This document shows positions 6,115 through 32,000 of a stretch of DNA of 32,000 nt, in pieces. The DNA is from Candidatus Saccharimonadota bacterium (lineage in GTDB: Bacteria; Patescibacteriota; Gracilibacteria; BD1-5; UBA6164). The stretch lies in contig OZ245768.1 of assembly GCA_965227835.1 (NCBI GenBank), positions 1 through 32,000 on the forward strand, read 5' to 3'. The translations under genes were made by a program, and so were the position numbers. Within the stretch, counting starts at the first letter, position 1. Each line of letters begins with the position of its first letter. The notes under the pieces are model-generated. The model did no database searches. It was given only the letters and a program-made list of their open reading frames with translations, and had not been told where the DNA came from.

Positions 6115-6165
6115 ATCCTACATTTATTTTACCCGAATTTTTTAAAAAATACTTTTCAAAAAATT

Positions 6166-9241: not shown

Positions 9242-9294
9242 ATTAATTTATTTTAATATAATACTTTTAATAATTTTTTCCTGAATTAAACCCC

Positions 9295-10448: not shown

Positions 10449-10471
10449 ATTTCTTACTTTGGGGAGAGATT

Positions 10472-11535: not shown

Positions 11536-11581
11536 ATTAAAAACTTAAAGGAGAAAATTATTATTTTTTAAATAAGATACT

Positions 11582-12541
11582 ATGGAAAAATTAAGTAAAT
11601 ATGCTTGATATGAAGAAAATGAAAGAACTTCCCAGTTTTATGATAGATTAAAAGAATGAAATGAGGCTTTTGATTTATTTTTTAAAAACATTTTTGAATT
11701 TGATTATAGAGATAGTTCTGATTTTCGTTCTCTTGAAGCTATTATAAAACAAAAAATAGGTTATTTTCTTTTTGATTCTTTTGAATCTAGTGATAAAGAG
11801 AATTTAGGAGATTTACTATTAGAAAATAGGGAAGTTTTTTCTTATCGTCCTTACTTTGATATAGATGAGGTTTTAGATGAAATTTGAAAAGAAAATTTAC
11901 AGAAAAAAGAAGATTTTTTGGAAAGTGTAAGGGATAAAATTATTTATATGATATCAATTTCTTTTTATATAAATAAAAATTTCAGAGTAATTAAATATCA
12001 AGAATTACAGAACAGAGTTTCTTGTTGCTTAGATGGAACTTTTGATAAATTTACACCCGAAGAAGAAGGAGAAATACTATATATTTACGAGAAAGAAAGA
12101 AAAAGATATAAAAAGAAAAGATTGTACTATCTTGAGAAGCAAATGGATATAGATAAAGCTAAGGTGCAACTGGAAAGAATGTATTCTGATAATAATAATA
12201 ATGAAAATATTAGGGGGCATTTATTCAGAGCTTCTACATCTTCTAATCCTTATGAAATAGAAAATTGAAAATTTTGCGAAGAGGCAATTGGAGGTATTTA
12301 CGGAGAAGATAGTGATGAAAAAGTTTTCCTACCAGATTATTTGAACTCAAAAGTAATTTTAGAATATGTTATAAGTGGATTACCACAAGATGTGAAATCA
12401 GAAATAATAGGTAGGTATGAAAAAAGAATAAATGAGTTTCTATATAAATTACATGATATAGTTAGTGATGTTAAAAACAGAACATCAAATATAATAGATA
12501 TAAACAAGAATCAAGCTTTTTTTAGGACTATGTCCCATTAA
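11582..12541 (+). CDS. Hypothetical 319-aa cytoplasmic protein
   Basis: Table-25 ORF joining track ORFs 11918-12268 and 12341-12541 in one frame across TGA codons. No family recognised. Confidence 0.75.
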
Positions 12542-12555
12542 AAGATTTGTAAAAT

Positions 12556-12583
12556 AAAAACTCCATACTGGAGTTTTTATTTT
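12556..12583 (+). terminator. Intrinsic terminator (aaaaactcca-tac-tggagttttt)
   Basis: 10-bp stem followed by a T-run, 15 nt after the stop at 12541. Confidence 0.75.
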
Positions 12584-15259: not shown

Positions 15260-15435
15260 AAAATTTAATTTAAGATCAATGAACATCTGCAAAATTAATC
15301 TTTTTTGCTAATTTTCACCAGGGAAATTTTTGGCTTAGAATAACTAAACAAAAAAGTTTATTCGTAAAAATTACCTAAAAAATCTCTACTTTTTTCATAA
15401 CGAAGTAACTCTGCGGACGTTCCTCAATTTATTTT

Positions 15436-15801
15436 TTATCTGCTATATGCATATTTAACATTATCTCTTATAACTATGAAATCAGGAGAATCTGTTTCTT
15501 CCATCCTATTTTTAACTTCAGACTTATTTATAGTATCCAAACTTTCTATATCAGATATTTTTACCTCCAATGTTTCTTTTTGTAAAAGCAAATTTTGTTT
15601 TTCTCTTTCTAAATATCTTATTTCATATCATTGAGTTGCTCATGTATTTAGTGACCATATCAAATATATAAAAGATATTGATATAAAGGCTATTAAGTAG
15701 TTAAAAGTCGAGTTTATTCAAAAAACTATATCATCTTTTTTTTTCTTCCTATTTGAAAATACTTGTTTTCTAAGACTAGGAACTATTATTTTTTTATTCA
15801 T
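15436..15801 (-). CDS. ftsL: FtsL-like cell division protein
   Basis: Basic N-terminus, a single TM (FNYLIAFISISFIYLIWSL), then a coiled coil (YEIRYLEREKQNLLLQKETLEVKISDIE). Lies directly downstream of rsmH, as in dcw clusters. Confidence 0.55.
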
Positions 15802-15829
15802 ATTATTTAAAATAATTTTAATTCTTTAT

Positions 15830-16807
<978 letters not shown>

Positions 16808-17063
16808 TTTTGTTAAAATAATGTTAATTTCTTATTTTAATCCTGTAAAAATAGCAAAATCTTGTATATATTTAATGATTTTTGTTTTTGTGTCAAAAAT
16901 AAAATAAAATAAATATATAGACAAAATTTATTAAAATAGTTTAGCTTAAAATAAACTATAAAATTTTGTTTTTAACACTATTTTAACATTGCTGTTTTCA
17001 ATTAAGATCTGAAGAGTTCTCCTAACTTTGTAAAATAACAATCTGAATTCTATCCAAATAAAA

Positions 17064-17083
17064 AAGAGCTAGGAGCTCTTTGC
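17064..17083 (+). repeat. Hairpin motif copy 4 (aagagctaggagctctttgc)
   Basis: GAGCT-agg-AGCTC stem followed by TTTGC, the same core and 3' tail as copy 1. Lies in the rsmH upstream region. Confidence 0.45.
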
Positions 17084-17177
17084 TTTGGAATTTGTATGGT
17101 TAAGATAAAAAAATTAAATAAATTTACCTACTTTTTAGATGATTAAAATTAATTAATTTAATATGGATATTTTTATT

Positions 17178-17394
17178 ACTCAAAACTACCCACTTTTTAT
17201 AAAAAGTATACCTATATTTTACTTTAAATAAAGGGAAATTAAGCTATTTTTAGTGTTTTATCTTTAGTATTTTATAAATGACTTATTTAAGCTAACTTTA
17301 TCTTTATAAAATTCAATCAATATAAAATCTCTGTTTTTACTTATATAAAGGTAAAAAATAAAATATAAAATACAAAAAACTGAGTAGATTTGAG
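17178..17394 (+). mobile_element. MITE-like 217-bp element, copy L
   Basis: 214 bp match the reverse complement of 30739-30952 with 2 mismatches. The element has its own ~20-bp terminal inverted repeats (actcaaaactacccac.. / ..ctgagtagatttgagt). No ORF. Confidence 0.6.
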
Positions 17395-17398
17395 TTAT

Positions 17399-17549
17399 TA
17401 TAGTAAACTAACTTGTAAGTTAGACTATTTTAAAATGCAATTTTAATTGAAAAGGCAATTTTTATTTTTAGCAGACAGAGAGCTTTAGCCCTTTGATATT
17501 GTAAGAAGTTTCTATTTTTGAAAGGAGGATACCTAGTTAGTTTACTATA
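17399..17549 (+). other. Possible structured element: 15-bp inverted repeat enclosing hairpin motif copy 3
   Basis: tatagtaaactaact (17399-17413) is the exact reverse complement of agttagtttactata (17535-17549). The 121 nt between them hold motif copy 3 (17475-17522) and aaaggagg. Confidence 0.4.
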
Positions 17550-17629
17550 CTTCTGTTTTTTTAAATCACTTTTTTATTGTTTTTTCATCAATATTACAAA
17601 GACTGTATATTTTTAATAATCAAGAAATT

Positions 17630-18388
17630 TTAAAAATGTTTTTTGTAATAGTTTTTGAAATATTCTAGATTTTGTAATATTTTCTCGTTGGTTCATACTC
17701 ATAATTCTCTAGGAGAAATTTCAAGAGTTATAAATCATCCATAAGAACTAGCTTTTAGCTTCATTAAAAAACTTTCAAGAGGTAAATAAGATGTTCATCA
17801 TCATGCTTGTCATGGTAGTAATCCTTTTTTAGGACCACGAGTGTCAGAAAATGATATATTTTTTATACTGCTTCAAAGCACTTTTTGTACTTTCAAAATA
17901 TCACTTCAACTGGAAGGTGATACTGCAGAAATATTCAAAACAGTGTCTCATGTAACATTTTTGATCTGCATCAAAGTTGCATCTTTGTACTCTGGAATTA
18001 TAAAAAAAGCAAACTTAGGTTCTACATTTTCTATAGAAATAGACAAATGAGTATCTCTTTTTATTTTATTTAGATACCTTAAATACCATCCTACATTTCT
18101 GTCTCTATAATGAGGGGGAGTAAAGCTTATATTTTGAGTCCCTAATTTTATAGCTAGTCATACTATATCATCAACAACCTTTTCAGTTATTCATCTTTTT
18201 GGTGCTTTTATTGATAAAACAGGAATATTAAATTCTTTTGATAAAGAGTAAACATAATCTTTATCCCAATAATCATAGTTTTTCTTTGATAGAATTAATT
18301 CAATTCAGTCATATTTTGAATCTCTTGCAAACTGGAAAATTCTATGTAATCCATATCATTCAAAACTTATAGTTGATAGTAGTAACAT
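17630..18388 (-). CDS. Sugar phosphate isomerase/epimerase-like TIM-barrel protein (xylose isomerase-like fold)
   Basis: Codon-by-codon translation gives 252 aa: ..ARDSKYDGIELIL.., ..HLSISIENVEP.., ..SFSDTRG.., ..GFITLEISPREL.., the pattern of the AP-endonuclease-2/xylose-isomerase-like family. Confidence 0.7.
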
Positions 18389-18474
18389 TTTTATAAATCA
18401 TTAATTGATAAACCTTTATATAATATTAACATAAAAGATTTATATATGCAAAATAATTAAATAGTATTTTTACT

Positions 18475-19332
18475 TTAATATCATTTAATCTCAAAATATT
18501 CTCCATTTTTAAGTATTATATATACTTTTCAGGAGTTTAAATATATTTTTTCTATGGTATCTTTGCTACTTTTTATCAAGCTTTTTTTCTTAGTTTTTTT
18601 GTCGTATGATACTATCAAATCTCAATTAATATTTTCAAAAGAATGATTTATTTTTCTTTTTTTATCATCATTTTTTATTACTCAAATATAAAAATCTCAA
18701 ACATCTACATAATCATTAAAAATAGAAAAATAATCTATGTTTTTATTTATTAAATTAAATCTAAATGTTCAAAGATCAGATACTATTCATAATCTGTCTT
18801 CTCATAAACTTTTTATATATATTATCTTAGGTTTAAAAGATGTAGTGAAAATATTATTATTATATAAATTTTTTATATAAAGATTATCCTTTACCTTATA
18901 ATATATGTAGTTGTCTTTACCATATATTTCTTCAAAAACTAAATTTTTATTAGCTTTTTTTAATAAATTTTCTTCTATTTTGTTTTTTAAAGGTTTATTT
19001 GAAGTTTCTATTTTTATTTCTTTTTCTAAGTCTATTTTTATATTATCAATTTTTCTTAAATTTATATTTACTTTGTATTCTTTATATCCTTTCTTTTTTA
19101 TATAAAGCTTGTATTCAAAGGGAGGGATATTTTCTATTTCACATTTTTTTTCTCAGCAAAAAAACTCTTTTTTAAATTTATTATTTTCTAGATTTCAAAA
19201 AAAATTCTTCCTGTTAGATTCTATAACAAATGTTTTAAGTTTAATTTCAAAAAAGTATTTATAAAATCAAAATCAAAATATGATAAATCATAAAATTATT
19301 AAAATTCAAATAGTTCTGTTTGATAAGTTCAT
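18475..19332 (-). CDS. Membrane-anchored hypothetical protein, 285 aa (possible PEGA-like beta domain)
   Basis: N-terminal TM TIGILIILGFIIFGFGFYKYFF, then ..CEIENIPPFEYKLYIKKKGYKEYKVNINL.., which weakly resembles a PEGA domain. 286 codons. Confidence 0.65.
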
Positions 19333-19360
19333 TTGATTGTTTATTTATTATAAATAAAAT

Positions 19361-20188
19361 TTATTTTATTCATGCAGATTTTAGTACATTTTTCATAAGC
19401 ATTGCCACAGTTAATGCTCCTACACCTCATGGAACAGGGGTTATTTTTCATCATTTTTCGTGTATTTTTTTTGTTTGTGCATCTCAATAAATTTTTCAGT
19501 TTTTTACACTAAATCATACATCTATAACTATAGTGTTTTCCCTTATCATAGAGCTTTTTAATAAATTTGATTTTCAAACAGCTACTATTATTATATCTGA
19601 TTTTAGAGTTATTTCTTTTAGTTTTTTTGTCTTGCTGTTACAAATAGTAACTGTTGCTTGTCTATTTATAAGTAAACTAGATATTGGCTTTCAAACTATG
19701 TTGCTTCTTCAAATTACAGCTATATTCTTTCAGGCAATTTTAATTTTTTTTCTATTTAGTATTTCTACAATTCAAGCTGGGGTACAAGGTATAAATCAAG
19801 AATTATCTCACAAAACTAGTTTTCATTGGTTTATGGGGTGAAATCAGTCTATATCTTTCAAAGGATTTATGGAGTTTAGAATTTTTGTTGAGTCTATATT
19901 TTTTGGTAGAGGCATTTGTACTATAAATCAATTTATTTCGAGAGATTTATTGAGTTCATTTATTATTGATAATAACTCTTCTGTGCTAGTATTTTCTCAA
20001 AGTTTTTTTAATTTAAAATTTACTCATATATACTCTGCCCATTTTCTTTTTTGGTTTATATATCTTAAAGATTCTTGATTATCTCATACTAAAATTACTC
20101 ATATGCTTACTTTTCTCCTAGAATCCTTTAGTTTTTCTTTTAATTCCTCATATATATCTAGTGCTATTTTAGTTCAATTTAAAATCAT
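19361..20188 (-). CDS. folD: Bifunctional methylenetetrahydrofolate dehydrogenase/cyclohydrolase
   Basis: ..GVILVGDNQES..YINQKRK..GFIVQMPLP..DGFHPINQGKL..FIPCTPAGIVEIL..AVIGRSNIVGKP..PVPGGVGALTVAML... 276 codons. Confidence 0.95.
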
Positions 20189-20273
20189 TTTTTTTTACTA
20201 ATATTAATTTTATATAAATTTTAATGACTAAGTATTTTTTGCAAAATAATTTTTTGCATTACTTTTTTCAATT

Positions 20274-20304
20274 AAAAAAATGCCAGTTAATTAGGCATTT
20301 TTTT
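20274..20304. terminator. Bidirectional intrinsic terminator (aaaaaaatgcc..ggcattttttt)
   Basis: Stem aatgcc/ggcatt with A-run and T-run flanks, between the stop of the surface protein gene and the folD start. Confidence 0.6.
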
Positions 20305-20322
20305 AAGGAGGCTTATTTTTTC

Positions 20323-21225
20323 TTACGACTTTCTCTTCTTAAAATATATTAATGAAGAAAACAGGACAGCAGTTAATATTAGTATCCAAGTTTCAGTTCA
20401 AGTGTCTGGTACTTTAGCAGAATTTAAAGCTACCTCATCTATTTTTTCTCATATTTCTTCTTCCTCTAAACTAGGTATTTCAAGATCTTCTTCAGAGATA
20501 GTTTGTGTCATAAAATCATATATAGAGTTTGTAATTGAGTAGTTATTTCATTCTTGTGTAGAAAGACCAAACATCATAACTATATATTTTGAATTTTCAT
20601 TTAAACTATTTTCTAAATATACATTTAGCTCTTTTTTATTTTCATTATTTATTCTATATGCTGTTTCTTTTATTCATTTTAACAGTTTAACTTCAATAGA
20701 TTCTCAGTCCACCGGTTGTGTAAAATAAATATCTAAATTTTTTTCATCAAGTATTACTATTTTTTCTATTCCTTGTGAATAACCTCAAATTATTTCTAAT
20801 CAAGCAATTTCATCTTCTATTTCAAAATCTATTGTTCATTCTGCTCCTACTACTGATAATAAACTGTAAGAAGAGTAAGAGGATAAACTATTTTCTAATA
20901 CCAAATTTACTAATTTATTGTCTTCTAAGTCTAGGGATATATTTTTATTTTCTAAATCTTTAAATATTTTAATGTCTGGATAAACATCTTGATTTCCGGT
21001 TTCTATATCTTTATCAAAAAATATTTTCAGTAAGTTAGAATTTTGAGAATTTATATCAATTATTGATGCTTCTATATCATTTTTTTCTTCTTCATCTAAA
21101 TATTCTCCCTTTAGATTGTCTTCACTTATAATTTCATTTTCCGTTTCTTCATAAATATTTATATCATTTTCAGCTGATACTTGTAGTGTTAAAAGCATTA
21201 AAATACTTAGAAGTGCTAGTTTCAT
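20323..21225 (-). CDS. Acidic surface protein with signal peptide and LPXTG-like C-terminal sorting signal
   Basis: MKLALLSILMLLTLQVSAE signal peptide. C-terminus ..KVPDTGTETWILILTAVLFSSLIYFKKRKS has a sortase-type motif, a hydrophobic helix and a basic tail. Extends track ORF 20836-21255 through TGA. Confidence 0.75.
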
Positions 21226-21288
21226 AATTTTTAATTTAATTTTAATTTTTATCATTATATTTATATTAAAAAAATCTCAAAATTAACT

Positions 21289-22620
21289 TTATAAATTTTT
21301 TGTGAGAGAAACTATATTTTTTTCAAGGTCAGATACATTTTTCAGTTTTATAAGTTCTATATTACTTTTCAAGTTGCAGTCTGCTAGAAATATTTTTTTA
21401 AATCCCATTTTTTCAGCTTCTTTTATTCTTTTTTCTATTTGTATAACTTTTTTTATATTTCATGTTAGAGATATTTCTCATATAAATACTATATCTTTGG
21501 GAATTACTTTATTTAGTTTACTGGAAATTATAGATGCTGCTATTGCTAAATCAATTCAAGGTTCTGATATTTTTAATCATCTCGATATGTTTGTATATAC
21601 ATCATAAGATTCTAGAGATATTTTAGTATATTTTGATAAAACAGCTATTATCAAATCTAGTTTTGAGCTGTTTATTCATCTTGCACTTCTTTTGGGATAT
21701 CAAAACTTGGTATATGTTGTGAGTCATTCTGTTTCTACCACCAATGTTTTTGTTCATTCTACAGTTATGCTTAGACTTGATCATATAGTATTTTTGGAGT
21801 CACTTATAAACTCCAAACTTGGATTTTTTAAATCTTTTAATCACTCTTCTTCCATTTTGAATATTCATATTTCACTTGTATTACCAAATCTGTTTTTAAG
21901 TGTTTTGAGTATTCTTAGATTATCATATTTTTCTCATTCTAGATATAATACTGTATCAACCATATGTTCCAAAGTTTTTGGTCAGGCTATGTCTCAGTCT
22001 TTGTTTACGTGTCATATTATAAAAAGAGATGTATTTGTATTTTTGGCATATGTTACTAGTAGTTCTGTTATATATTTTATTTGACTTATGCTTCAAGATA
22101 TACTTGATATATTTGAAGAGTGCATTACTGAAATAGAGTCTATTATTGCTATATCACATTTATTTTTACTTAGAGTTTCTATTATGTTTTCTATATTTCT
22201 TTCAGATAGTAGTTCTATATTTTCTCAATATATGTTTAGTCTTTTTGCTCTTGAACTTACTTGATTTATAGTTTCTTCTCATGATATATATATTGTTTTT
22301 TTATCAGCTACCCAACTAGCTATTTGAAGGGTGATTGTGGATTTTCATATTCATGGTTCTCATGTTATAAAACTTACTCATCATGGTGTTATTCATCATC
22401 ACAACACATTATTTAATTCTTGAGAGCTTGTTTTTATTTTATAGTTTGTCTTTTCATTTTGTATTTCAGATATTTTTTTTAGTTCTTTTATTTCTGCCTT
22501 TTTTCAATTGCTTGTTACATCTGGTTTTTTAAATTCTTTTAGTGTAGACCAAGATTTACAAAATAGGCATTGTCATGACCATTTCAAGCTTTCATTTCAG
22601 CATTCACTGCATATATACAT
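21289..22620 (-). CDS. radA: DNA repair protein RadA/Sms
   Basis: Zn-finger CSECG..CLFC, Walker A ITGEPGIGKSTITLQ, KNRFG motif, and a Lon-protease-like C-terminal domain. 444 codons. Confidence 0.95.
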
Positions 22621-22788
22621 ACTAGATTTTTATTTATAAAATTTATTTTAGTGTATAAATAGTATATAAAAAGTAAAATTTTTTTTGACGGATAGTGAGA
22701 AAGCTCATTAACATATAATGCATTAGGAAATAAAATAAACATTATGTAATCAAATGTTTAATTCTCATGCTAAATACCAATAATTATT

Positions 22789-22900
22789 TTTTTTAATTTA
22801 TAAATATCAAAAAAGAGAGAAATAAATTTCTCTCTTTTTTTAAATTCATTGTTTCAAATGGCTAAAGCCATCTGTTGCCAAAAAGATTATTTTTTTCTGA
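22789..22900 (+). repeat. Direct repeat A (112 bp) containing a terminator hairpin
   Basis: Matches 27902-28012 with one T/C substitution and one T indel. Contains aaaaaagagagaaat..atttctctctttttt (22809-22841) and the small hairpin atggc-taaa-gccat. Confidence 0.9.
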
Positions 22901-22983
22901 TTTTTATTCAAGAATTTCCCTGGTTAAAATTTATAAAAAAGGTTATTTTTTCATAGAAGTTAATTTTCAAATATCTTTTTAAA

Positions 22984-23919
22984 CTAATCTCATCATAATA
23001 AATCACTAATTTTATCTAACATCCAGTTTTTTGTCTTTTCAACTTTCAGACTACTTGAAGCTTGTTCTCTAGTTTCTTTTTGATTTTGCAATAGAGTGTC
23101 TCTTTTTTCTATTGCTTTAATACATAGGTTGTAAATTTCTATAGTAATTAAAGGTTTTCATTCAGTAGGATTTAAATATTCGTCTAATTCTTGTTTTGTT
23201 ACTTCGAGTCACATTCTTACTCATTGGGCATTTTCATAAAATCTAGTATCTAAACATTGATTTGGTAGTTCTATTATAGCTCTTCTTAATAACATTCTCA
23301 CATCATCTTCTTCAGGAATATATCATTTTCAAGCAAAATACACTATGTCTTTTATTCTTATTGCTCAAGAAGCTATGGAAGCTTTTAAGGACATTATATC
23401 TATTGTAACTTTATCTCATTTTCATTCTTTTATAGATTTTATTACTCAATAATGAATCCATAAATTTTGATAAAAATTTATTTTGTTAATTGCTAAAATA
23501 AAATTTGGATTTATCTCTCAGTTCTCTAAATATACTTTTATTTCTTTTCAGTTTTTAAAAATAGATTTTCATTTTAATTCAAATCAAGCTTCTTTTGCAT
23601 GTGTACTAGCATGTTCATCTTCAAAAGCTGATAATAATCAATTTAAAAACTCTAATCAATTATTTTCTGAGTATATATATAAATTTCACCTCAGATTTTC
23701 ATTTAGTATTATTGCTATATCATCTACAACTCATATTTTTAATTCATTAAATTCTTCAATGCTTATATCTAAATCTCCTTTAATTAAACTTCTAATCTTA
23801 TTTTCTCTTTCTATTTTATTTTCTATAGCACTATCAAAAAAACCTTGAGCTGTTTTTTCTTCTCAAGATGTTCTTACTTCATAGTAAGTTTGATTATTTA
23901 ATTCTATTCAAGTATCCAT
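22984..23919 (-). CDS. Cassette gene C: orphan 311-aa protein
   Basis: Uninterrupted table-25 ORF (ATG 23919, TAG 22984-22986), 25 nt after gene B. No family recognised. Confidence 0.7.
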
Positions 23920-23944
23920 AAATATTATTTTATAATTAAATATT

Positions 23945-26494
23945 TTATTCTTGGTTTGTTTGTCTTTTAAATCCAGGAGTGTAATTAATAGAAGTTCTAT
24001 TTTGTATTGATTCTAGATATTTTTTTACCCCTTCAACATCTTTTATCTTTAATATCCAGTTAATATTTCATAAACTCATCTGTATTTCATCAATTCTTCC
24101 TCAAGATTCACTTATTTCAATAAGTTTATTAAATTCTGCCATTCTCTGTAGCTTATAATTTCTCACATATTTTATATCTTCTATAGTGTTTACTCTTATT
24201 CATAAAGCTTCCAGTTCAGTAATCCTTTGTTCTATTTTATCATTAATGAGTGATTCTGCTTCTAATTTTAAATTTAATATATTTTCGTTTGTAGAAATAA
24301 GACTTTGAAATTCAGAATCAATTTTGGAATCCAAACCTCAAAATCATTTCATTAAGTTTTCTATATTTCATGAAAGTACATCTTTAATTTCTAAATTAAC
24401 TCCTCACTCTGATTCAGGATAATTAGAAGATTTTGTATTTGTACTTTTGTTACCAACTTTGGTTCTTATAACACTAGAACTATTATTTATTAATAATAAT
24501 TCTTTAGGATTGTATCATAGTTTTACCAAAAATAAAAGCCCTAAATTGGATAATATATTTTCAGGAGCCTGTCAGTTTTCAAATATATTATCCCCATAGA
24601 ACATATTTTGTGATAAAAATTCTATACCAGTAAATGCTCATAATTCTACTGAATTGTTTATAGTCTTTCAAGAAAGTTTTGAACTATCTACTCACATTTT
24701 ATTTAAAAATGGGTATGTATGCTTCATAACACTAAATAAACCTGCTCATGCTATGGATCATGCAAGAAAATCTTTTAGTGTATATCATTCAAAAGTTCCT
24801 CTTGATTGTCTTGTTCTATTTATTAATTCAAAAGACGTTCATTCTAAAAAATCTACTCATAAAGCTCATTTAAAAGTAGCTTGTTTTATTCAAAAAATAA
24901 ATTTAGATATTCTTCATATTACAAAAGCTGTTAAAGGTATAGATATTACTTCTTCTAATAGTATATTCTTTGTATTTATGCTTAGGTTAAATACTTCATT
25001 TGTTGGATCAAATAAATCTTTATATTGTTCTATTAATTCTTTTTTTTCTCAGGTTATCTTTCATAGTTTAATTTTTGATTCAAGATTTTTGAATATGTCA
25101 TATTCAAGTTCTTGTTCTAATTCTAATTTAGTGAGTATTCTTGCTCTTATTTCTATTTCTTCTTCTGATATATCAGGCATCTTTTCTCTAATAATTTCTT
25201 TATTTTTACTTACTTTTTCCTCTATATCTATATTCCCTTTACTTATTATTTCTCACAGTACCATTTCATATTCTCAACTAAAAGTATTTGTGAGTTTATA
25301 TTTTAAGGAATAAAGAAAAGAAGGACTTTTAAATCTTAAATCAGGATTTGTTATTGGATTATCTGTACTTATGTCTACAAATCATTTAATTGCCTCAGTA
25401 TATATTTGTTCATTTGTTCATTCTATATTTACTGAACTCAACACTCTTGTAAAACTGTTAAATCTTTCAGTAATTCTTTTTATATGATTATTATTTAGTC
25501 TTATGATATTTTCATAGTTATCGGGTATTGGTCATCAATGCCTAGCTGGATTTTTTTTATTTACCCAGTCTTTGATTTTTCAATGAAATTTTTGAGATTT
25601 TTCTTCTAATTTATCAATTATTTGTTCTCCAGATAATTCTTTATTTTCAAAAATTTTTTCAATATTTCTTTTGAAACTATCATAAAGTTCTTTTTCTCAA
25701 TCAAGATAAGAAATACTGTCATCTAAGTTTATAACTTCAAAACTATCCAATACTATAAATACTGCTTGTTTTATTCTCAATGCTTTCATTTTTTCAGAGT
25801 CTTCTATTATTGAAGCAAATTCTATTGCATTTATCATAGCCTCTACTATTGGTTTTTTATCAGTAGGGATATCTAAATCTTGTATACTCTTATCTTCATC
25901 TCTTAAATATTTTAAAGCTCCTTTTAAATCTCCATTACTTAAATGTAATTTTAACCCTGGAAAGATTTGTAATAATAAATTAGAATTATCAGTTATTTGA
26001 TTAATATATTCTCTGTCAATTCATTCTTCTTCTAATTTTAGAGTAAGCATTTGAGCTATATTAATTCAAGTATTAATTGTTTCATATTCATTTTCGAGTA
26101 CAGTATGACCTATTCAATCTAAATATGTTGTTCTAAGTTGTCAGTCTCAACCTACTGATAATTTACTCCTTTCAGATTCACTAAAAGTACTAAGAAAAGC
26201 CTCTTGTGTTTTATCTCACCAGCTTCCATCTATCTCTCAATCATATCCTCACATTATTTTTATTATTATTTGAATACATTTAGTTTCAAAATAATTACTT
26301 CTATCTATTTCTCATTCTCTTATTATTACCTCTTTCATTTTAAGCGCAAATTCTTGATGACTCTCATCTGAATCTAATTCTTCTTTTATAATTTCTGGTG
26401 GAGTAATATCAAAATTAGCAGAACACTCATTTACTAGTTCTACTAATGATTTTTGTCATTCTTGCTGTTCATTTATTCTTTGTATTTCAGTCAT
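23945..26494 (-). CDS. Cassette gene B: orphan 849-aa protein with PG-binding-like motif, Gly-rich hydrophobic block and coiled coils
   Basis: 850 codons from ATG 26494 to TAA 23945-23947. Contains ..IQIIIKIMGGYDGEIDGSWGDKTQEAFLSTF..GGDGQLRTTYLDGI.. (PG_binding_1-like). About four hydrophobic Gly-rich helices lie near residues 560-700, with a heptad-like C-terminus. Confidence 0.75.
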
Positions 26495-26497
26495 ATT

Positions 26498-26782
26498 TTA
26501 TATATTATTTATTTCTAACTCAATATCTTTGAAATCTTTTTCTTTTTCTAATATTTCTTGTTTTTTTATGTTTATAATACTATTTCTAGCTTCAATTAAG
26601 TTATTTATACTGTTTTTATCTTTTGCACTTTTACTTGCTGTATTTAAAAAAGAAATTATGGTATCAACATAGCTTTCTTTAAATGATTTAGTATTGTATA
26701 ATCAAATAGCTAATTCTCACGCTAAATCCCATGAATTAGTTTCTTTTAATTTTATCAATATATTTAATAATTCCTGCTTCAT
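26498..26782 (-). CDS. Cassette gene A: small helical 94-aa protein
   Basis: Strong SD aaaggag lies 7 nt upstream of ATG 26782. The stop is 3 nt before the gene B start, suggesting translational coupling. Confidence 0.6.
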
Positions 26783-26818
26783 TTTCTTCTCCTTTGAATT
26801 AATTATTTGTTTTTTATA

Positions 26819-26848
26819 ATTTTAGCATATTTTTTGAAATTTTTGCAA
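26819..26848 (-). promoter_or_regulatory. Sigma70-like promoter for the cassette operon (TTGCAA-18 nt-TAAAAT)
   Basis: On the minus strand, TTGCAA is at 26843-26848 and TAAAAT at 26819-26824. It lies between the IS982 end and gene A. Confidence 0.4.
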
Positions 26849-26857
26849 ATATACTAC

Positions 26858-27872
26858 TAATGTGAATCTCGTTAGGCAAGAGATTTGTATTTAGAGGTAG
26901 AATCAAAGAATTTTTTTAGCTGATAAGCAGTTAAACATAATACATAATGAGAGAAATATCAAATTTCAGATCTAGCCAAAGAAGTTTCCATTCACATACG
27001 ATGTTTCAAAACAGAAAAAACAATCTCCACTCTCTGTCTCATTTTTAAAATTTGATGTTGAACCTTTGTCATTAATTTCTTCATATTTGCTTTTACTGCT
27101 GTAAATAAATGTTTTCCATTTTCTCTAGCCTTATCCTCCCAATTCTTTCATATGTATCAAGCATCAGCTACAATCATTCAAAATATATCTTTCCACATCA
27201 TTTCCATTCATCTTCTATCATCCATATTTCAAGATGTAATTCTAAAATTTAATATCTCCATATATTCATTACATATTATATGTAATTTAAATCAGTAAAA
27301 CCATCACATACTGCTTTTTCATTTATTAGATATCCTCTTAGATACTTTATGATTAAACTCTCTCTTTATTTTACATACTTCTAGTTTTGATGAGTCAACA
27401 AATTTTAACATATTCTCACCTGTATTTTCCTTGAAGATTTTCATAAAATATCATAATAACACAAGAGATAGAAAGGATATTTTATTTATTCACGATTTAA
27501 AGTTTTGATAATTTGGGAGATTTGGAAAATCTTTTTTATGGTATGTATTTATGAATTTGTAGTATGATTTCCAGTTGTCTTGTCATGAGAAAAATTTAAA
27601 TATTCATAGTGTTAGTAATTCTGCTAATTCTAGTTTAAATTTCTTACTTGGGGGTCTTTTGTTATTTGGTCTTTCTAAACAAAATTTTAAGTCTTTTAAT
27701 ATATTTTTTATAAAATCTGATACAAAGTCGTATATTGTTATTAAAATTATTATTAAATTTTCATCTTTCATATATAATTAATTTAAGATTATAAAGTATG
27801 TTAAAAAAATCACTCTATAATCTTATTTATTCCCTAGAATAAAACAGGTTTTGCCTAACGAGATTCACATTA
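26858..27872 (-). mobile_element. IS982-family insertion sequence (~1.0 kb)
   Basis: Perfect 22-bp terminal inverted repeats taatgtgaatctcgttaggcaa at 26858-26879 and 27851-27872 (reverse complement), enclosing one intact transposase gene. Confidence 0.9.
26872..27771 (-). CDS. IS982-family DDE transposase
   Basis: ..KFVDSSKLEVCK..GWFYGFKLHII..IVADAGYIG..RQRVEIVFSVLKHRMG.. are the IS982 signatures. 300 codons, with the stop inside the left IR. Confidence 0.92.
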
Positions 27873-27901
27873 ATAATATCAATTACATCATCTATTAACT
27901 G

Positions 27902-28012
27902 TTTTTTAATTTATAAATATCAAAAAAGAGAGAAATAAATTTCTCTCTTTTTTTAAATTCACTGTTTCAAATGGCTAAAGCCATCTGTTGCCAAAAAGAT
28001 TATTTTTTCTGA
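27902..28012 (+). repeat. Direct repeat B (111 bp)
   Basis: Partner of 22789-22900. The terminator hairpin is at 27922-27954. Confidence 0.9.
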
Positions 28013-28030
28013 AGAATGTTAATCTTTTAA

Positions 28031-28525
28031 GGCTCTCTTTTAGATTTTAATTTTCGGCATAATAGTAAAAAATGTGTGGCTAAAAATCCTATATTGGAAG
28101 CTAATAAAGAATTGAAGAAAATATGAGAATTACTTACTTGTACTGATAAAGAAACTTTTGAATATGAATTAGAAAAATATTATTTTAAATATGAGAGTTT
28201 TTTAAAAGAAAGAAAGTTAAATAAAAAATGAAAACTAGAATATATTCACAAGAGAACAAGATCTGCTTATTTTTCTTTAAAAAGAAATTTGAAATATTTA
28301 TTTACTTGGTATGATTATTATTGAAAGCTGGATATACCAAATACAACAAATGCTCTAGAATGAGTTTTTGGTCATTTAAAAGTTAAGGTTAGTCTTCATA
28401 GAGGATTAAAAAAACAGAGAAAAATTAAATTAATTTTAGCTCTCATACATGGGAAAAACTAACTTAACCAGCCACACACTTTTTACAATTAAACCTAATT
28501 TTCTAGTTTCTGCTTTATAACCTAA
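28031..28525 (+). pseudogene. Transposase C-terminal fragment (DDE family uncertain), no start codon
   Basis: Open frame ..IHKRTRSAYFSLKRNLKYLFTWYDYYGKLDIPNTTNALEGVFGHLKVKVSLHRGLKKQRK.. has a TNxxEG-type last catalytic motif. There is no in-frame ATG before the conserved part. Confidence 0.55.
28065..28485 (+). mobile_element. Internally deleted IS remnant (~420 bp) with 17-bp terminal inverted repeats
   Basis: gtaaaaaatgtgtggct (28065-28081) versus agccacacactttttac (28469-28485), one mismatch. The interior holds only the C-terminal part of a transposase. Confidence 0.6.
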
Positions 28526-28537
28526 CAAAAAAAGGTT

Positions 28538-28720
28538 TTACCCTTTTTTTATTTCTTTCATTTTTAGTACTTCGTGTTTTCTTGTTTTTTTATTGTATTT
28601 TCTCAAGTTTGGTCATTTTACTCAATTTTCAAAATTCTTTTTTTGTATATTTGTAGAATGTACCATATTTCCTGTATCTGTAGAATAAAATGCTACATAG
28701 GTTCTTTTTCCTTTTGCCAT
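28538..28720 (-). CDS. rpmG: 50S ribosomal protein L33 (Cys-less form)
   Basis: MAKGKRTYVAFYSTDTGNMVHSTNIQKKNFENGVKGPNLRKYNKKTRKHEVLKMKEIKKG follows the L33 pattern (..Y.T.KN..N....L.L.KY....RKH..HKE.K). Confidence 0.8.
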
Positions 28721-28814
28721 TTTTTGAATAATTAATTATATATATTTTTTACGATTTTGGATTATATAAAAAAACTATATGTAAGCAAATTTTTTCAATT
28801 TTATAAATTGTCAT

Positions 28815-30524
28815 CTATTCTACAATTGTTTTATCTAAATCCATTCATGCAGGAACCATGGGGAATACATTTTCTTCTTTTTTAACTTTGTACCATATAA
28901 GACTTGGTCATTTTTCTCAATAAATTTCTTTAGAATACCTTTCCATTTGCTCACTGCTTTCTATTTTATATCACTTTATTCAATAAGATTCAGCTATTTT
29001 CATATAATCCGGTGATGAAATATCAACATTACTTCTTGTATTTTCATCAAACATATCCTGCCATTGTCTAACCATTCATAAATAAGAGTTATCAATTATA
29101 ACTATTTTTATATTTAGTTTAGGATACTGTTTCAACAATACTGTTAATTCTGGTAAATTCATTTGAAATCATCAATCTCCAGATATAGAAATTACTTGTT
29201 TTCAAGGGTTAGCTATTGCTGCTCATATAGCACTTGGTAGAGAAAATCACATAGTTCATAATCACGAACTTGAAAGCCAGTTTTTAGGATCTTTTATATC
29301 AAGTATTTGAGCTGCCCACATTTGATGCTGTCAAACATCAACGGTGTATATACAATTTTTTTCAGCATATTTATTTATAGAATTTAGTACCTGTTTTGTT
29401 CAAAATATATTTTCTTCTATTATGTATGGCTTCTCTTTCTGCCATTTTTTTATTTGTTTAATCCAAGATTCTATATCCAGTTTAGGGTTTTCTCATAGAT
29501 TTTTAGAAAATATATCTATAAAATTTTCAGCATCAGATCTAATAGATAGATTTGTTGAAACAAGTCTTCAAAGTTCTTTGTCATCTATATCTATATGTAC
29601 CACTTTTTTGTTTTTTCAAAAATTTGTGTAGGTTCAAACTATACGATCATCAAATCTAGATCATATATTTATTAAAAGATCAGAATTATGTACTGCCATA
29701 TTTGCATGATAGAATCAGTGCATTCAAAGCATTCACAATATATTCTCATCTTTATCATCAACTACTCATTTTGCAAGTAAAGTATATACCGTGGGGATAT
29801 TTAGTTTTCCTATAAGCTTTTTTATTTTTTGTGGGGCTTTTCAGTATTTGGTTCATTGTCATATAAGAAGTATAGGTCTTTTCGATTCTCATATTAATTT
29901 TTTTAATTCCTCCATTTTTTCAGGAGATATTTCGTCATTTTTCGTATGTTCAAATTTATTTATATAGTATGAGTCTATACTTGGAAACTCAAAACTTTCT
30001 GGATGTTGTGTTAAAAGTACATCTTTGGGTATATCTAAGTGTACTGGTCAGGGCCTTCAGCTTACAAGTATATTTAAGGCTTTCACTACTTCATAAACTA
30101 CTTTGTTTGGGTCATCGATTAATTTAAAATATTTTGATATGTGTTTTGATATTCAAACGGCATTTATTTCTTGAAATGCATTCTTTCATATCATATGACG
30201 AGGTACTTGTCCTGAAACTACAAGCATAGGTATTGAATCCATATAAGCATCTCCTAGTGGTGTTACTACATTTGTGAATCAAGGTCATGATGTAACTAGA
30301 GTTAGTGCTTTTTTTCATGTTGATCTAGTATACCCTTGTGCCATAAACCCTGCTCATTGCTCACTTGCGGGGAGTATATGTTTTACTTTATCTTTAAATT
30401 TGTTTAAAGAGTTATACAGTGGTATAGCTGCTCATCAAGGATATCAGAAAATAGTATCTATGTTTCAATATTCTATTATCGTTTTCAATATTGCATCTGC
30501 GCATGTAAAATTTTTTTTGTTCAT
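28815..30524 (-). CDS. ilvB: Acetolactate synthase large subunit (ThDP/FAD-type AHAS)
   Basis: ..[109 protein letters not shown]... 570 codons. Confidence 0.93.
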
Positions 30525-30540
30525 TTTTTGTAAAATTTAA

Positions 30541-30584
30541 TAAATAAAAAACACTTCTCTTTTGTCAGCAAAAGAGAAGTGTTT
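30541..30584 (-). terminator. Strong intrinsic terminator/attenuator about 17 nt upstream of the ilvB start
   Basis: Perfect 16-bp stem aaacacttctcttttg-tcag-caaaagagaagtgttt. On the minus strand it is followed by tttttattta. Confidence 0.75.
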
Positions 30585-30599
30585 GAAAAAAATACCCTC

Positions 30600-30665
30600 T
30601 TAACTGACTCGCAAGAAGACTAATACCACCACATTAGAAAGGATTATAAACGATATTTTTGGCAT
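30600..30665 (-). CDS. 21-codon mini-ORF MPKISFIILSNVVVLVFLRVS: candidate branched-chain amino acid leader peptide, or small hydrophobic peptide
   Basis: ATG 30665, TAA 30600-30602. 12 of 21 residues are Ile/Leu/Val. Locally GC-richer than the surroundings, and ends 15 nt before the terminator stem. Confidence 0.4.
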   Translation of the reverse strand: MPKISFIILSNVVVLVFLRVS

Positions 30666-30698
30666 TTTTTAATTTTTTAAATTTCTTTTATGTTTTGG

Positions 30699-30726
30699 AT
30701 AATAATTGTAAAGTATTTATAGTCAA
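30699..30726 (-). promoter_or_regulatory. Sigma70-like promoter for the leader-ilvB transcript (TTGACT-16 nt-TATTAT)
   Basis: On the minus strand, TTGACT is at 30721-30726 and TATTAT at 30699-30704. It lies just inside the MITE-like copy R. Confidence 0.35.
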
Positions 30727-30735
30727 AGTTTTTTG

Positions 30736-30952
30736 CTTAAATCTACCCAGTTTTTTGTATTTTATAGTTTATTTTTTACCTTTATATAAGTAAAAACAGA
30801 GATTTTATATTGATTGAATTTTATAAAGATAAAGTTAGCTTAAATAAGTCATTTATAAAATACTAAAGATAAAACACTAAAAATAGCTTAATTTCCCTTT
30901 ATTTAAAGTAAAATATAGGTATACTTTTTATAAAAAGTGGGTAGTTTTGAGT
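30736..30952 (-). mobile_element. MITE-like 217-bp element, copy R (inverted relative to copy L)
   Basis: Reverse complement of 17178-17394. Flanked on both sides by ttttg, a possible 5-bp target duplication. Confidence 0.6.
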
Positions 30953-31033
30953 TTTTGGTCCTTTTTAGATGTGTTTTCTTTAAATTTAAAACATATCTAA
31001 ACTATTCATATTTTTTACATTTATTTTAATTTA

Positions 31034-31072
31034 TGCTAAAATTGTAAAATAAAGTTAATTTATGCTATAAAT
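31034..31072 (+). promoter_or_regulatory. Two tandem extended -10-like boxes (TGCTAAAAT, TGCTATAAAT)
   Basis: The repeated aatttatgcta(a/t)aa sequence lies upstream of ATG 31080. The second box ends 8 nt before the ATG, so a near-leaderless mRNA is possible. Confidence 0.3.
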
Positions 31073-31079
31073 TCAATAA

Positions 31080-32000
31080 ATGGTTGAAAAAATAGAAATA
31101 GGTGGAGGTTCTATTGAGTCAAATTCAAGCAATAGAGTTGACACTTCAGTTAAAAGCGATGTAGAAGGTATTTTATGAAATAAAAACGAAATAAATACTT
31201 GTCTTACAAGTTATAGATTAAATCAAAATTTAAATAAAAAAAATTTTGATTTAATTTTTGAATCATTTTTAGAAAAAGCAAAAAGTGATGATAATTTTGC
31301 AGAAAATATAGTCCCAGCATTAATAAATACCTGAAATATATCAGAAGAAAAACTGAACTCTAGCTTTGATTTAATTTTAAGAGAATCAAAAAATAGAGAT
31401 AGTTGGTCAAGATATATATTTCCAGTATTAATAAAAACCTGAAAGATATCAGAGGATAAATTAAACTCTAATTTTGAGTCAGTTCTACAAGAAGCAAAGC
31501 ATAATACATATTTAGCAATATATGTAGTACCAGAATTAATAAATACATGAAGAATATCGGAAGAAAAATTAAGATTTTTAGATAATTTTTTTGATTTTGC
31601 TTTAAAAGAAGCAAGAACTAATCAGGACTTTGCAATATATATAATTCCAGCACTAATAAATACCTGAAAGATACCAGAAGAAAAGTTAAACTCTATTTTT
31701 GAATCATCTTTAAAAGAAGCAAGAATTAATAAGGACTTTGCAATATATATAATTCCAGCATTACTAAAAACCTGAAAAATATCAGAAGAAAAATTAAAAC
31801 TTCTAGATGATTTTTTTGATTTTGTTTTAGAAGAAACAAAAACAGATTATTATTGGACAATCTATATAGTTCCAGTATTAATAAATACCTGAAAGATATC
31901 AGAAAAGAAATTAAATTCCATTTTTGAATCATCTTTGAAAGAAGCAAGAATTAATGAAGATTGGGCAAAATATATAATTCCAGTATTAATAAAAACCTGA
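31080..32000 (+). CDS. Tandem-repeat protein, 5' part (runs off the window)
   Basis: Table-25 ORF from ATG 31080. It has at least 7 repeats of the type ..F(E/D)xxL(K/E)EA(R/K)xNxD(F/W)AIYIIPALINTGKISEEKL... Confidence 0.75.
31290..32000 (+). repeat. Coding tandem repeats with mixed 108- and 117-bp periods
   Basis: The ccag(c/t)attaataaa(t/a)acctgaaa landmark recurs at 31314, 31422, 31530, 31647, 31755, 31872 and 31980. Confidence 0.85.

What the first reader, a model, noticed from the sequence alone, without database searches (positions are those of the whole stretch)
17178..30952. Two near-identical 217-bp MITE-like elements in inverted orientation bracket a 13.3-kb gene block
17178-17391 is the reverse complement of 30739-30952 with only 2 mismatches in 214 bp. 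Each copy has its own ~20-bp imperfect terminal inverted repeats (actcaaaactacccac / actcaaatctac(t/c)cag). There is no ORF. Copy R is flanked by ttttg on both sides, a possible 5-bp target duplication; copy L is flanked by tatt-like sequence, which is weak in AT-rich DNA. The TIRs do not match the IS30, IS982 or IS-remnant ends in this window, so the autonomous partner is unknown.

There are three consequences:
- This is a candidate new non-autonomous element family.
- Inverted copies 13 kb apart are a substrate for recombinational inversion of a block holding folD, radA, rpmG, ilvB and the accessory cassette.
- Both copies sit upstream of outward-facing genes (rsmH-ftsL on the left, the repeat protein on the right), and copy R also abuts the inward leader-ilvB promoter. 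The element may therefore contribute regulatory sequence.
Basis: seen in the sequence. Interest (0 to 1): 0.65.

Follow-up and report, generated by a model that had tools for sequence, protein, structure and literature searches.

The report
Small mobile element and its parent
The two 217-bp inverted repeats are real copies of a small non-coding jumping element (a MITE). Its parent transposon, previously undescribed, sits elsewhere in the same Gracilibacteria genome and can only be expressed by bacteria that read TGA as glycine.

Summary
There are two 216-bp cores (17179-17394 on +, 30736-30951 on -) with 3 mismatches, 15-bp terminal inverted repeats (CTCAAAWCTACYCAS) and perfect 6-bp target duplications (TTATTA and TTTTTG).

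The window is a Candidatus Gracilibacteria genome that reads TGA as Gly. A sister strain carries a third copy at a different site with its own duplication (ATACTA) and lacks the element at both window sites. A further copy interrupts a transposase gene in the window's own genome.

It is a 1284-1292-bp insertion sequence with a 392-aa DDE transposase, matching termini and 6-bp duplications. The sister-strain copy shares 26 of 26 terminal bases with the MITE. At least two intact copies lie in the window's 1.49-Mb genome.

The transposase has IS4 hallmarks: a complete YREK motif, CT ends and a single ORF. However, it makes short duplications, falls below every curated family cutoff, and carries 16-18 in-frame TGA codons.

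The inversion and regulatory ideas have no support. This is a new member of a known kind, of moderate interest.

The parts
17179..17394 (+). MITE copy L, 216-bp core. The A-end (17179-17193, CTCAAAACTACCCAC) faces rsmH. The B-end (17380-17394, reverse complement CTCAAATCTACTCAG) faces the 3' end of the 253-aa gene.
17173..17178 (.). Left copy of the 6-bp target-site duplication of copy L (TTATTA).
17395..17400 (.). Right copy of the 6-bp target-site duplication of copy L (TTATTA).
30736..30951 (-). MITE copy R, 216-bp core. The A-end (30937-30951) faces the repeat-protein gene. The B-end (30736-30750, CTTAAATCTACCCAG) lies 9 bp upstream of the -35-like hexamer of the ilvB leader promoter.
30730..30735 (.). 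ilvB-side copy of the 6-bp target-site duplication of copy R (TTTTTG on the + strand). Homology with sister-strain contig L011 ends here.
30952..30957 (.). Repeat-protein-side copy of the 6-bp target-site duplication of copy R (TTTTTG).
17401..30729 (.). The bracketed 13.3-kb block, which is not part of the element. It holds the 253-aa TIM-barrel-like protein, a 286-aa protein, folD, a 310-aa secreted-like protein, radA, a 5-kb orphan cassette with an IS982 transposase, an IS256-type fragment and ilvB. All but the IS256-type fragment are on the - strand, and there is no recombinase.

Best explanation

Its partner is a 1284-1292-bp insertion sequence found in code-25 Gracilibacteria, including the window's own 1,489,121-bp genome. 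That IS encodes a single 392-aa DDE transposase with invariant D96, D174 and E268 and a complete Y(2)R(3)E(6)K motif.

Inferred mechanism: the transposase binds the roughly 20-bp termini (CTCAAAWCTACYCAS followed by TTTTT), excises or copies the element, and joins it to a target cut with a 6-bp stagger. Repair of the stagger produces the 6-bp duplication.

Copies L and R are two separate simple insertions into AT-rich intergenic DNA. They were made recently, after this strain diverged from its sister strain.

Shown: the anatomy, the duplications, the site polymorphism, the shared termini, and co-residence of the MITE and intact transposase genes in one genome. Inferred: trans-mobilisation by that particular transposase, cut-and-paste chemistry (by analogy with the IS4 family), and present-day activity.
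For: - Anatomy: 216 bp, 15-bp TIRs, perfect 6-bp duplications that differ between copies, no ORF.
- Third copy in the sister strain: ENA ERZ25074195 contig, L011 8459-8674, 98.6-99.1% identical, with its own duplication ATACTA, between nifU and sufD where the window has none.
- Absence at the window's sites in the sister strain: no element upstream of ilvB in L011, none in the rsmH contig L041, and an approximate empty site for copy L at L041 ~5633-5655.
- Age: flanking DNA between the strains is 86-97% identical (one segment 99.7%), while the MITE copies are at least 98.6% identical.
- Nested copy in the window's genome: transposase P0013 equals the intact protein for 346 residues, then reads QNYPLFIKSIPIFYFK*. 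That is 16 of 16 residues of the MITE's A-end in frame +2, and the last 7 lie beyond the part the MITE shares with the IS.
- Partner IS: L015 is 1286 bp with TIR CTCAAATCTACCCAG and duplication TATTTG. L037-39 have duplication AATAAT, L043 TTTTTT and L046 ATTAAT.
- Terminal match: the sister strain's IS end is 26/26 identical to the MITE A-end, and its other end matches the B-end 18/21.
- Same genome: the window's proteins and transposases P0079 and P0082 (392 aa, intact) plus P0013, P0078, P0081 and P0020 all lie on a contig of 1,489,121 bp from NCBI and ENA.
- Transposase identity: Pfam DDE_Tnp_1 at 40.5 bits against a cutoff of 23; DDE and YREK invariant in 25 diverse members.
Against: - Only four copies are documented: two in the window, one inferred from a protein tail, and one in the sister strain. 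The genome-wide copy number is unknown because the full genome could not be read.
- No perfectly clean empty site was found. The sister strain is rearranged at or near all three sites.
- Apart from about 20-26 terminal bp and a weak in-register match at 53-96 bp from the A-end (2 of 300 shuffles), the interior is unrelated to the IS (63 of 200 shuffles score as well), so its origin is unknown.
- The B-end TIRs differ among copies. All 4 private substitutions lie in the last 32 bp, which may mean some copies are no longer mobile.
- Transposition was not observed directly.
Confidence: 0.88

Rival explanations
1. The pair of inverted copies works as an inversion switch or recombination substrate. 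Homologous recombination between L and R flips the 13.3-kb block, and this is the biologically relevant role of the repeats.
For: 217 bp at 99% identity in inverted orientation is long enough for RecA-type recombination (established knowledge). The lineage is heavily rearranged relative to its sister strain.
Against: - Each copy still has its own matching duplication on both sides. A single L x R inversion would swap the inner flanks and break both duplications (inference).
- The sister strain's arrangement (rluD directly next to ilvB; rsmH-ftsL and radA-p253 on other contigs) cannot be produced by an L x R inversion.
- No recombinase or invertase is encoded in the block.
- All block genes except the IS256-type fragment share one strand with their neighbours, so inversion would turn them against that orientation.
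Confidence: 0.05
2. The repeat is a conserved regulatory or RNA element, such as a promoter cassette, 5' UTR or small RNA, duplicated upstream of outward-facing genes, and is not a mobile element.
For: In all three copies the A-end faces the 5' end of a gene transcribed away from it: rsmH at 371 bp, the repeat protein at 128 bp, and nifU at 58 bp in L011. Copy R's B-end is 9 bp from the -35-like box of the ilvB leader promoter.
Against: - It is absent from the orthologous ilvB and rsmH upstream regions of the sister strain.
- No Rfam match, even at E<=1.
- Fold z-scores are only -1.7 and -1.9, and most of the stability comes from TIR pairing.
- Promoter-like sites are not enriched: 5 found against 8.1 expected, and 6 against 6.3. 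None reads out of the A-end.
- A terminator-like hairpin (17081-17063, -) separates copy L from rsmH.
- The three distances to the genes all differ.
- An A-end orientation bias of 3 out of 3 has p of about 0.25.
Confidence: 0.04
3. The two copies form the ends of a composite transposon that carried the 13.3-kb block here as a unit, or alternatively they are an assembly or duplication artefact.
For: The two outer ends are both A-ends in inverted orientation, the geometry of Tn10- or Tn5-type composites. Window 15268-28526 is missing between rluD and ilvB in the sister strain.
Against: - The outer flanks do not share a duplication (TTATTA against TTTTTG), while each copy has its own.
- The segment missing from the sister strain (15268-28526) does not coincide with the MITE-bounded segment (17179-30951).
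- The block holds core genes (folD, radA, ilvB) that sit in other contexts in the sister strain.
- Against an artefact: an independent assembly carries the same element at another site with its own duplication, and the source is a single 1.49-Mb contig. Reads could not be inspected.
Confidence: 0.03

Closest known systems
Bacterial MITEs that share only termini with a resident IS, for example the BrickBuilt, MITE239, MITE464 and MITE700 elements of Porphyromonas gingivalis (PMC4596501)
   Same: Short (50-1000 bp), AT-rich, with terminal inverted repeats and target duplications, no transposase, located in intergenic DNA. The TIRs match those of an autonomous IS in the same genome while the interior is unrelated.
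   Different: The sequence, the TIRs and the host phylum (Gracilibacteria, code 25) all differ. The duplication is uniformly 6 bp, whereas BrickBuilt's varies in length. The copy number here is not known (at least 3 in this genome, against a typical 10-20).
IS4 family, IS10 subgroup (IS10/Tn10), as defined in PMC2266710
   Same: The partner IS has a single-ORF DDE transposase with a complete Y(2)R(3)E(6)K motif, a length of 1284-1292 bp (the subgroup range is 1200-1350) and 5'-CT ends.
   Different: The duplication is 6 bp, not 9 bp (IS4 proper makes about 7-13 bp). The D-to-E spacer is 93 residues, just below the family's 100-150. All NCBIfam IS4 models score far below cutoff (24-29 bits against 115-250). 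There is no sequence match to any solved structure or to any of 72,556 plasmids.
IS1634 and IS701 'emerging families' (PMC2266710)
   Same: Short duplications (IS1634: 5-6 bp AT-rich tracts; IS701: 4 bp). Sub-threshold profile hits to IS701 and IS1634 models are as frequent as hits to IS4 models.
   Different: Those families lack a complete YREK motif, which is invariant here. IS1634 elements are 1500-2000 bp with long N3-C1 spacers. IS701 makes exactly 4-bp duplications.

Membership tests
MITE (non-autonomous TIR element; criteria as in PMC4596501) | Length 50-1000 bp and AT-rich | tested here: met
   216 bp, 19% GC
MITE (non-autonomous TIR element; criteria as in PMC4596501) | Terminal inverted repeats | tested here: met
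   15-bp TIRs, 12-13 of 15 matching within a copy, extended by TTTTT. Four occurrences in the window against 0.32 expected.
MITE (non-autonomous TIR element; criteria as in PMC4596501) | Target-site duplication that differs between copies | tested here: met
   TTATTA, TTTTTG and ATACTA, all perfect 6-mers. Chance is about 1e-3 each.
MITE (non-autonomous TIR element; criteria as in PMC4596501) | No transposase coding capacity | tested here: met
   Longest open stretch is 42 codons under code 25, with no start codon.
MITE (non-autonomous TIR element; criteria as in PMC4596501) | Termini shared with an autonomous element present in the same genome | tested here: met
   26/26 and 18/21 terminal matches to the sister strain's IS. 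Intact 392-aa transposases P0079 and P0082 lie on the same 1,489,121-bp contig as the window's proteins. The IS DNA of the window's own genome could not be read.
MITE (non-autonomous TIR element; criteria as in PMC4596501) | Insertion polymorphism between related genomes | tested here: met
   All three sequenced sites differ between the window and sister strain ERZ25074195. The empty sites are only approximate because of nearby rearrangements.
MITE (non-autonomous TIR element; criteria as in PMC4596501) | Multiple copies per genome (typically 10-20 in bacteria) | tested here: inconclusive
   At least 3 in the window's genome (L, R and the copy inside P0013's gene) and at least 1 in about 64 kb of the sister strain.
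IS4 family sensu PMC2266710 (for the partner IS) | Complete Y(2)R(3)E(6)K motif with E as the DDE glutamate | tested here: met
   YKQRREIETIFKTMK. Y261, R264, E268 and K275 are invariant in 25 diverse members.
IS4 family sensu PMC2266710 (for the partner IS) | D(60-110)D(100-150)E spacing | tested here: inconclusive
   The D-to-D spacer of 77 is within range. The D-to-E spacer of 93 (92-96 in most members) is just below range.
IS4 family sensu PMC2266710 (for the partner IS) | Single transposase ORF without programmed frameshift | tested here: met
   One 392-399-aa ORF in L015, L037, L040, L044 and L046.
IS4 family sensu PMC2266710 (for the partner IS) | Target duplication of about one helical turn (7-13 bp) | tested here: not met
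   6 bp in four IS insertions and three MITE insertions; two further IS copies have degraded 6-mers.
IS4 family sensu PMC2266710 (for the partner IS) | Score above a curated IS4 family model cutoff (NCBIfam) | tested here: not met
   For the two proteins whose scores were tabulated, the best hits are 24-29 bits against cutoffs of 115-250. The 25 aligned members hit IS4 and IS701 models about equally.
IS1634 family sensu PMC2266710 | 5-6-bp AT-rich duplication, incomplete YREK (arginine usually missing), length 1500-2000 bp | tested here: not met
   The duplication length fits, but YREK is complete and the length is 1284-1292 bp.
Composite transposon formed by the L/R pair | One shared target duplication on the two outer flanks | tested here: not met
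   The outer flanks are TTATTA and TTTTTG, and each copy has its own duplication.

The most novel reading that the evidence does not exclude
The IS and its MITE form a genetic-code-locked mobile system. The transposase gene has 16-18 in-frame TGA codons and almost no GGN glycine codons, so it can be expressed only in TGA=Gly hosts. All detected relatives that carry a source name are Gracilibacteria.

On this reading the system, together with the other IS families present, actively restructures an unusually IS-rich, reduced CPR genome. MITE ends would mark synteny breakpoints. One break coincides to the base with copy R's target duplication, and the element even inactivates copies of its own parent IS.
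Probability: 0.25. Interest if true: 0.55.

Novelty: new member of a known kind. Interest (0 to 1): 0.4.

Why it matters
MITEs and IS4-type elements are well-known kinds, so the finding is not conceptually new. It does add three things:
- A documented MITE and parent IS pair in the Candidate Phyla Radiation. Full-text searches found no description of MITEs or IS families in Gracilibacteria.
- A transposase group that combines the IS4 catalytic signature with the short duplications otherwise typical of the IS701, ISH3 and IS1634 families. This blurs the criterion used to separate those families.
- An example of a mobile element whose spread is limited by genetic-code reassignment.

In practice, knowing this repeat and its parent IS helps in assembling and comparing Gracilibacteria genomes, where such repeats break contigs and sit at rearrangement points.

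Tried and rejected
- **GTDB genome scan:** the TIR 20-mer gave 10 single hits in unrelated phyla, about the number expected by chance. The source genome is not in that set.
- **Viral contig scans:** both the TIR pattern and an interior 30-mer found nothing.
- **Metagenome scan:** 25 hits, of which 24 were chance. Only L015 was real. L026 shares about 24 bp of one end and nothing more.
I worked around this with code-4 translations and cluster membership.
- **DNA of the transposase loci in the window's own genome** could not be retrieved.
- **Search for other proteins with MITE-encoded tails:** a six-frame peptide concatenate returned nothing, not even the positive control P0013, because the tails are too short.
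- **Transposase against the PDB and against 72,556 plasmids:** no match.
- **Rfam** at gathering threshold and at E<=1: nothing in the element.
- **Deletion-derivative origin of the interior:** not supported overall. There is only a weak in-register signal near the A-end.
- **L011 as a clean empty site for copy R:** rejected because the right flanks are unrelated.
- **Composite-transposon and inversion-switch readings:** rejected on the duplication pattern.
Full report
**Observation.** The inverted repeat exists as described. The arms are 17178-17394 and 30736-30952, 217 nt, 99% complementary and 13,341 nt apart. Aligning the copies with 30 bp of flank shows three mismatches and a sharp loss of identity at both ends. 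The core is 216 bp: 17179-17394 on the + strand (copy L) and 30736-30951 on the - strand (copy R). Each copy starts with CTCAAAACTACCCAC (the A-end) and ends with the reverse complement of CTCAAATCTACYCAG (the B-end), both followed by TTTTT. This terminal pattern occurs four times in the window against 0.32 expected, and nowhere else. Both copies are flanked by perfect 6-bp direct repeats: TTATTA for L (17173-17178 and 17395-17400) and TTTTTG for R (30730-30735 and 30952-30957). At this base composition two 6-mers match by chance about once in a thousand. The element is 19% GC and has no ORF; the longest open stretch is 42 codons without a start.

**Context.** Table-11 ORFs are very short. Reading through TGA raises the total ORF length from 6.7 to 39.7 kb, and TGA falls at conserved glycines (the SufC Walker A motif and SufB), so the genome uses code 25. 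The closest named RadA relatives (59-69% identity) are all Candidatus Gracilibacteria. The gene order is as follows:
- ftsL and rsmH (-)
- copy L
- a 253-aa TIM-barrel-like protein, a 286-aa protein, folD, a 310-aa protein and radA (all -)
- a 5-kb cassette of orphan ORFs with an IS982 transposase
- an IS256-type fragment
- ilvB (-) with a leader
- copy R
- a repeat protein (+)

The window's proteins lie on a contig of 1,489,121 bp held by NCBI and ENA.

**Evidence that the unit transposes.**
- An exact-protein lookup recovered contigs of a sister strain (ENA ERZ25074195) that are 86-99.7% identical to the window.
- That strain has a third copy (L011 8459-8674, 98.6-99.1% identical) between nifU and sufD, flanked by its own 6-bp duplication ATACTA. 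The window has no element there.
- Conversely, the sister strain has no element upstream of ilvB and none in its rsmH contig.
- A segment next to copy L has a counterpart in L041 in which homology runs across the insertion point without the element. This is an approximate empty site.
- The copies are more alike (at least 98.6%) than most flanking DNA (86-97%), so the insertions postdate the split of the two strains.
- A truncated transposase in the window's own genome, P0013, is identical to the intact protein for 346 residues and then reads QNYPLFIKSIPIFYFK*. That is 16 of 16 residues of the MITE's A-end in frame +2. The last seven residues lie beyond the stretch the MITE shares with the IS. 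So at least one more copy exists in this genome, nested in its parent element.

**The autonomous partner.**
- A metagenome scan with the terminal 20-mer gave one real hit among 25. L015 is a 25%-GC, code-25 contig carrying a 1286-bp element with termini CTCAAATCTACCCAGTTTTT and CTCAAACCTCCCCAGTTTTT, a 6-bp duplication TATTTG, and one 392-aa ORF.
- The ORF is a DDE_Tnp_1 transposase at 40.5 bits against a cutoff of 23.
- It has 77 relatives at 90%-cluster level. Most lie on contigs of about 1.3 kb, as expected for collapsed IS copies, and the only named ones are Gracilibacteria transposases.
- Further copies have the same termini and 6-bp duplications: AATAAT (L037-39), TTTTTT (L043) and ATTAAT (L046, 52% identical protein, TIR CTTAGATTTCCCCAGTTTTT). 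Two have degraded duplications: L040, and L044 at 42% identity.
- The sister strain's copy (L043 9903-11186, 1284 bp, frameshifted) matches the MITE's A-end at 26 of 26 terminal bases, including the lineage-specific A at position 7. Its other end matches the B-end at 18 of 21. The A-end corresponds to the IS end that contains the transposase stop codon.
- Six members of this transposase family lie on the same 1,489,121-bp contig as the window's proteins: two intact at 392 aa (P0079, P0082) and four truncated. The MITE therefore co-resides with intact transposase genes.
- The interior of the MITE is not detectably derived from the IS (63 of 200 shuffles score as well). The exception is a weak in-register match 53-96 bp from the A-end (2 of 300 shuffles).

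**Classification of the partner.**
- Across 25 diverse members, D96, D174 and E268 and the Y261, R264, E268 and K275 residues are invariant, giving D(77)D(93)E and a complete Y(2)R(3)E(6)K motif.
- By the criteria of PMC2266710, this motif, the single ORF, the CT ends and the 1.3-kb length fit the IS4 family, IS10 subgroup.
- The 6-bp duplication does not fit. IS4 proper makes about 7-13 bp. Duplications of 4-6 bp characterise IS701, ISH3 and IS1634, which lack a complete YREK.
- All NCBIfam hits are far below cutoff, and IS4 and IS701 models are hit about equally.
- There is no sequence match in the PDB or in 72,556 plasmids.
- I therefore call it an unassigned IS4-like group. ISfinder could not be consulted.
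- The transposase genes carry 16-18 in-frame TGA codons against 1-6 GGN codons, so they are translatable only where TGA encodes glycine.

1. *New non-autonomous family:* supported, and the partner is no longer unknown.
2. *Inversion substrate:* physically possible, but nothing supports it.
   - Both copies retain matching duplications, which a single L x R inversion would separate.
   - The sister strain's arrangement has rluD next to ilvB, with rsmH-ftsL and radA-p253 on other contigs. That is not the inversion product.
   - The block encodes no recombinase.
   - The pair is also not a composite transposon, because the outer flanks do not share a duplication.
3. *Regulatory contribution:* unsupported.
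   - Promoter-like sites are not enriched (5 against 8.1 expected; 6 against 6.3), and none reads out of the A-end.
   - A terminator-like hairpin (17081-17063, -) lies between copy L and rsmH.
   - rsmH, the ilvB leader and the repeat protein each have promoter-like sites outside the element.
   - The one point of possible contact is that copy R ends 9 bp upstream of the -35-like hexamer of the ilvB leader promoter. The sister strain provides the allele without the element.
   - Rfam finds nothing in the element, and its fold is only marginally more stable than shuffles.

**Unexplained.**
- Homology with the sister strain upstream of ilvB stops exactly at copy R's target duplication, and the DNA beyond the element is unrelated in the two strains. 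Yet the duplication is perfect.
- All four private substitutions among the three sequenced copies lie in the last 32 bp at the B-end, three of them inside the TIR.

Both observations hint at events at the element's ends that simple insertion does not explain.

**Verdict.** This is a genuine MITE with an identified IS4-like parent in a code-25 Gracilibacteria genome. It is a new member of a known kind and of moderate interest. The copy number, current activity and any regulatory or recombinational role remain to be tested.

Noticed in passing
window 1-32000: The whole window uses TGA as a sense codon for glycine (code 25). Nearly every gene has 3-40 in-frame TGA codons, and table-11 ORF calls are fragmented.
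   Followed up: yes
window 30665-30524 (- strand): There is a candidate ilv attenuator upstream of ilvB. The 21-aa leader peptide MPKISFIILSNVVVLVFLRVS* (30665-30600) has 11 of 21 Ile/Leu/Val residues. It is followed by a terminator with a 16-bp stem (30584-30549) and then the ilvB start at 30524. Two promoter-like sites lie at 30726-30699 and 30672-30643.
   Followed up: partly
window 17399-17549; L041 5650-5783: A second short repeat of about 150 bp lies right next to copy L. It has a perfect 15-bp terminal inverted repeat (TATAGTAAACTAACT), TA on both flanks and a fold z-score of -3.7. An 80%-identical copy with an 18-bp indel sits in a different context (downstream of nusB) in the sister strain. 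It may be another MITE family or a small RNA. There is no Rfam match.
   Followed up: partly
window 30730-30735 vs L011 18342-18347: The synteny breakpoint with the sister strain coincides to the base with the ilvB-side target duplication of copy R. The right flanks are unrelated: a repeat protein in the window, and a 201-aa protein followed by groES and groEL in L011.
   Followed up: partly
MITE positions 185-214 (window 17363-17392; 30767-30738; L011 8643-8672): All four private substitutions among the three MITE copies cluster in the last 32 bp at the B-end, and three of them lie inside the 15-bp TIR. The rest of the element is identical in all copies.
   Followed up: no
window 22789-22895 and 27902-28008: 107-bp direct repeats, 99% identical and containing a terminator-like palindrome, bracket a 5-kb cassette. 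The cassette holds three ORFs with no Pfam match (311, 849 and 94 aa) plus an IS982 transposase. The sister strain's homology ends at 22685, just before the first repeat.
   Followed up: partly
window 9281-10469 and 11536-12577: An IS30-family element (transposase at 9397-10374, - strand) and a 319-aa gene (11582-12541) are present in the window. In sister-strain contig L011 they are replaced by about 25 bp and about 42 bp respectively.
   Followed up: partly
window 15268-28526 vs L011 16131-16141; L041; L042: The window is a mosaic relative to the sister strain. There, rluD abuts ilvB directly, while rsmH-ftsL (86% identical) and radA-folD-p253 (94% identical) lie on two other contigs among IS110, IS200/605 and DUF772-type transposases. 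The lineage is unusually IS-rich for a 1.5-Mb CPR genome.
   Followed up: partly
protein P0020 (window's genome); L041 13050-12988 and 495-430: The aberrant N-terminus of the 320-aa transposase fragment P0020 is encoded by the end of a different, DUF772/DDE_Tnp_1-type IS seen in the sister strain. So one IS is nested inside another.
   Followed up: partly
window 26798-26829 and 31032-31063: A shared promoter-like motif (TATGCTAAAAT, an extended -10 type) lies upstream of both the 94-aa cassette gene and the repeat-protein gene.
   Followed up: no
window 31238-32000: The repeat-protein gene has tandem periodicity of 108 and 225 nt, seen as repeated ...PALINTGKISEEKLNS... modules. It has no confident Pfam match and no counterpart in the available sister-strain contigs.
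   Followed up: no
window 6132-6161 and 8741-8770: A 30-nt inverted repeat (87% match, containing ACCCGAATTTTTT) has one arm at the nifU-sufD breakpoint and the other about 2.6 kb away. Its significance is unknown.
   Followed up: no
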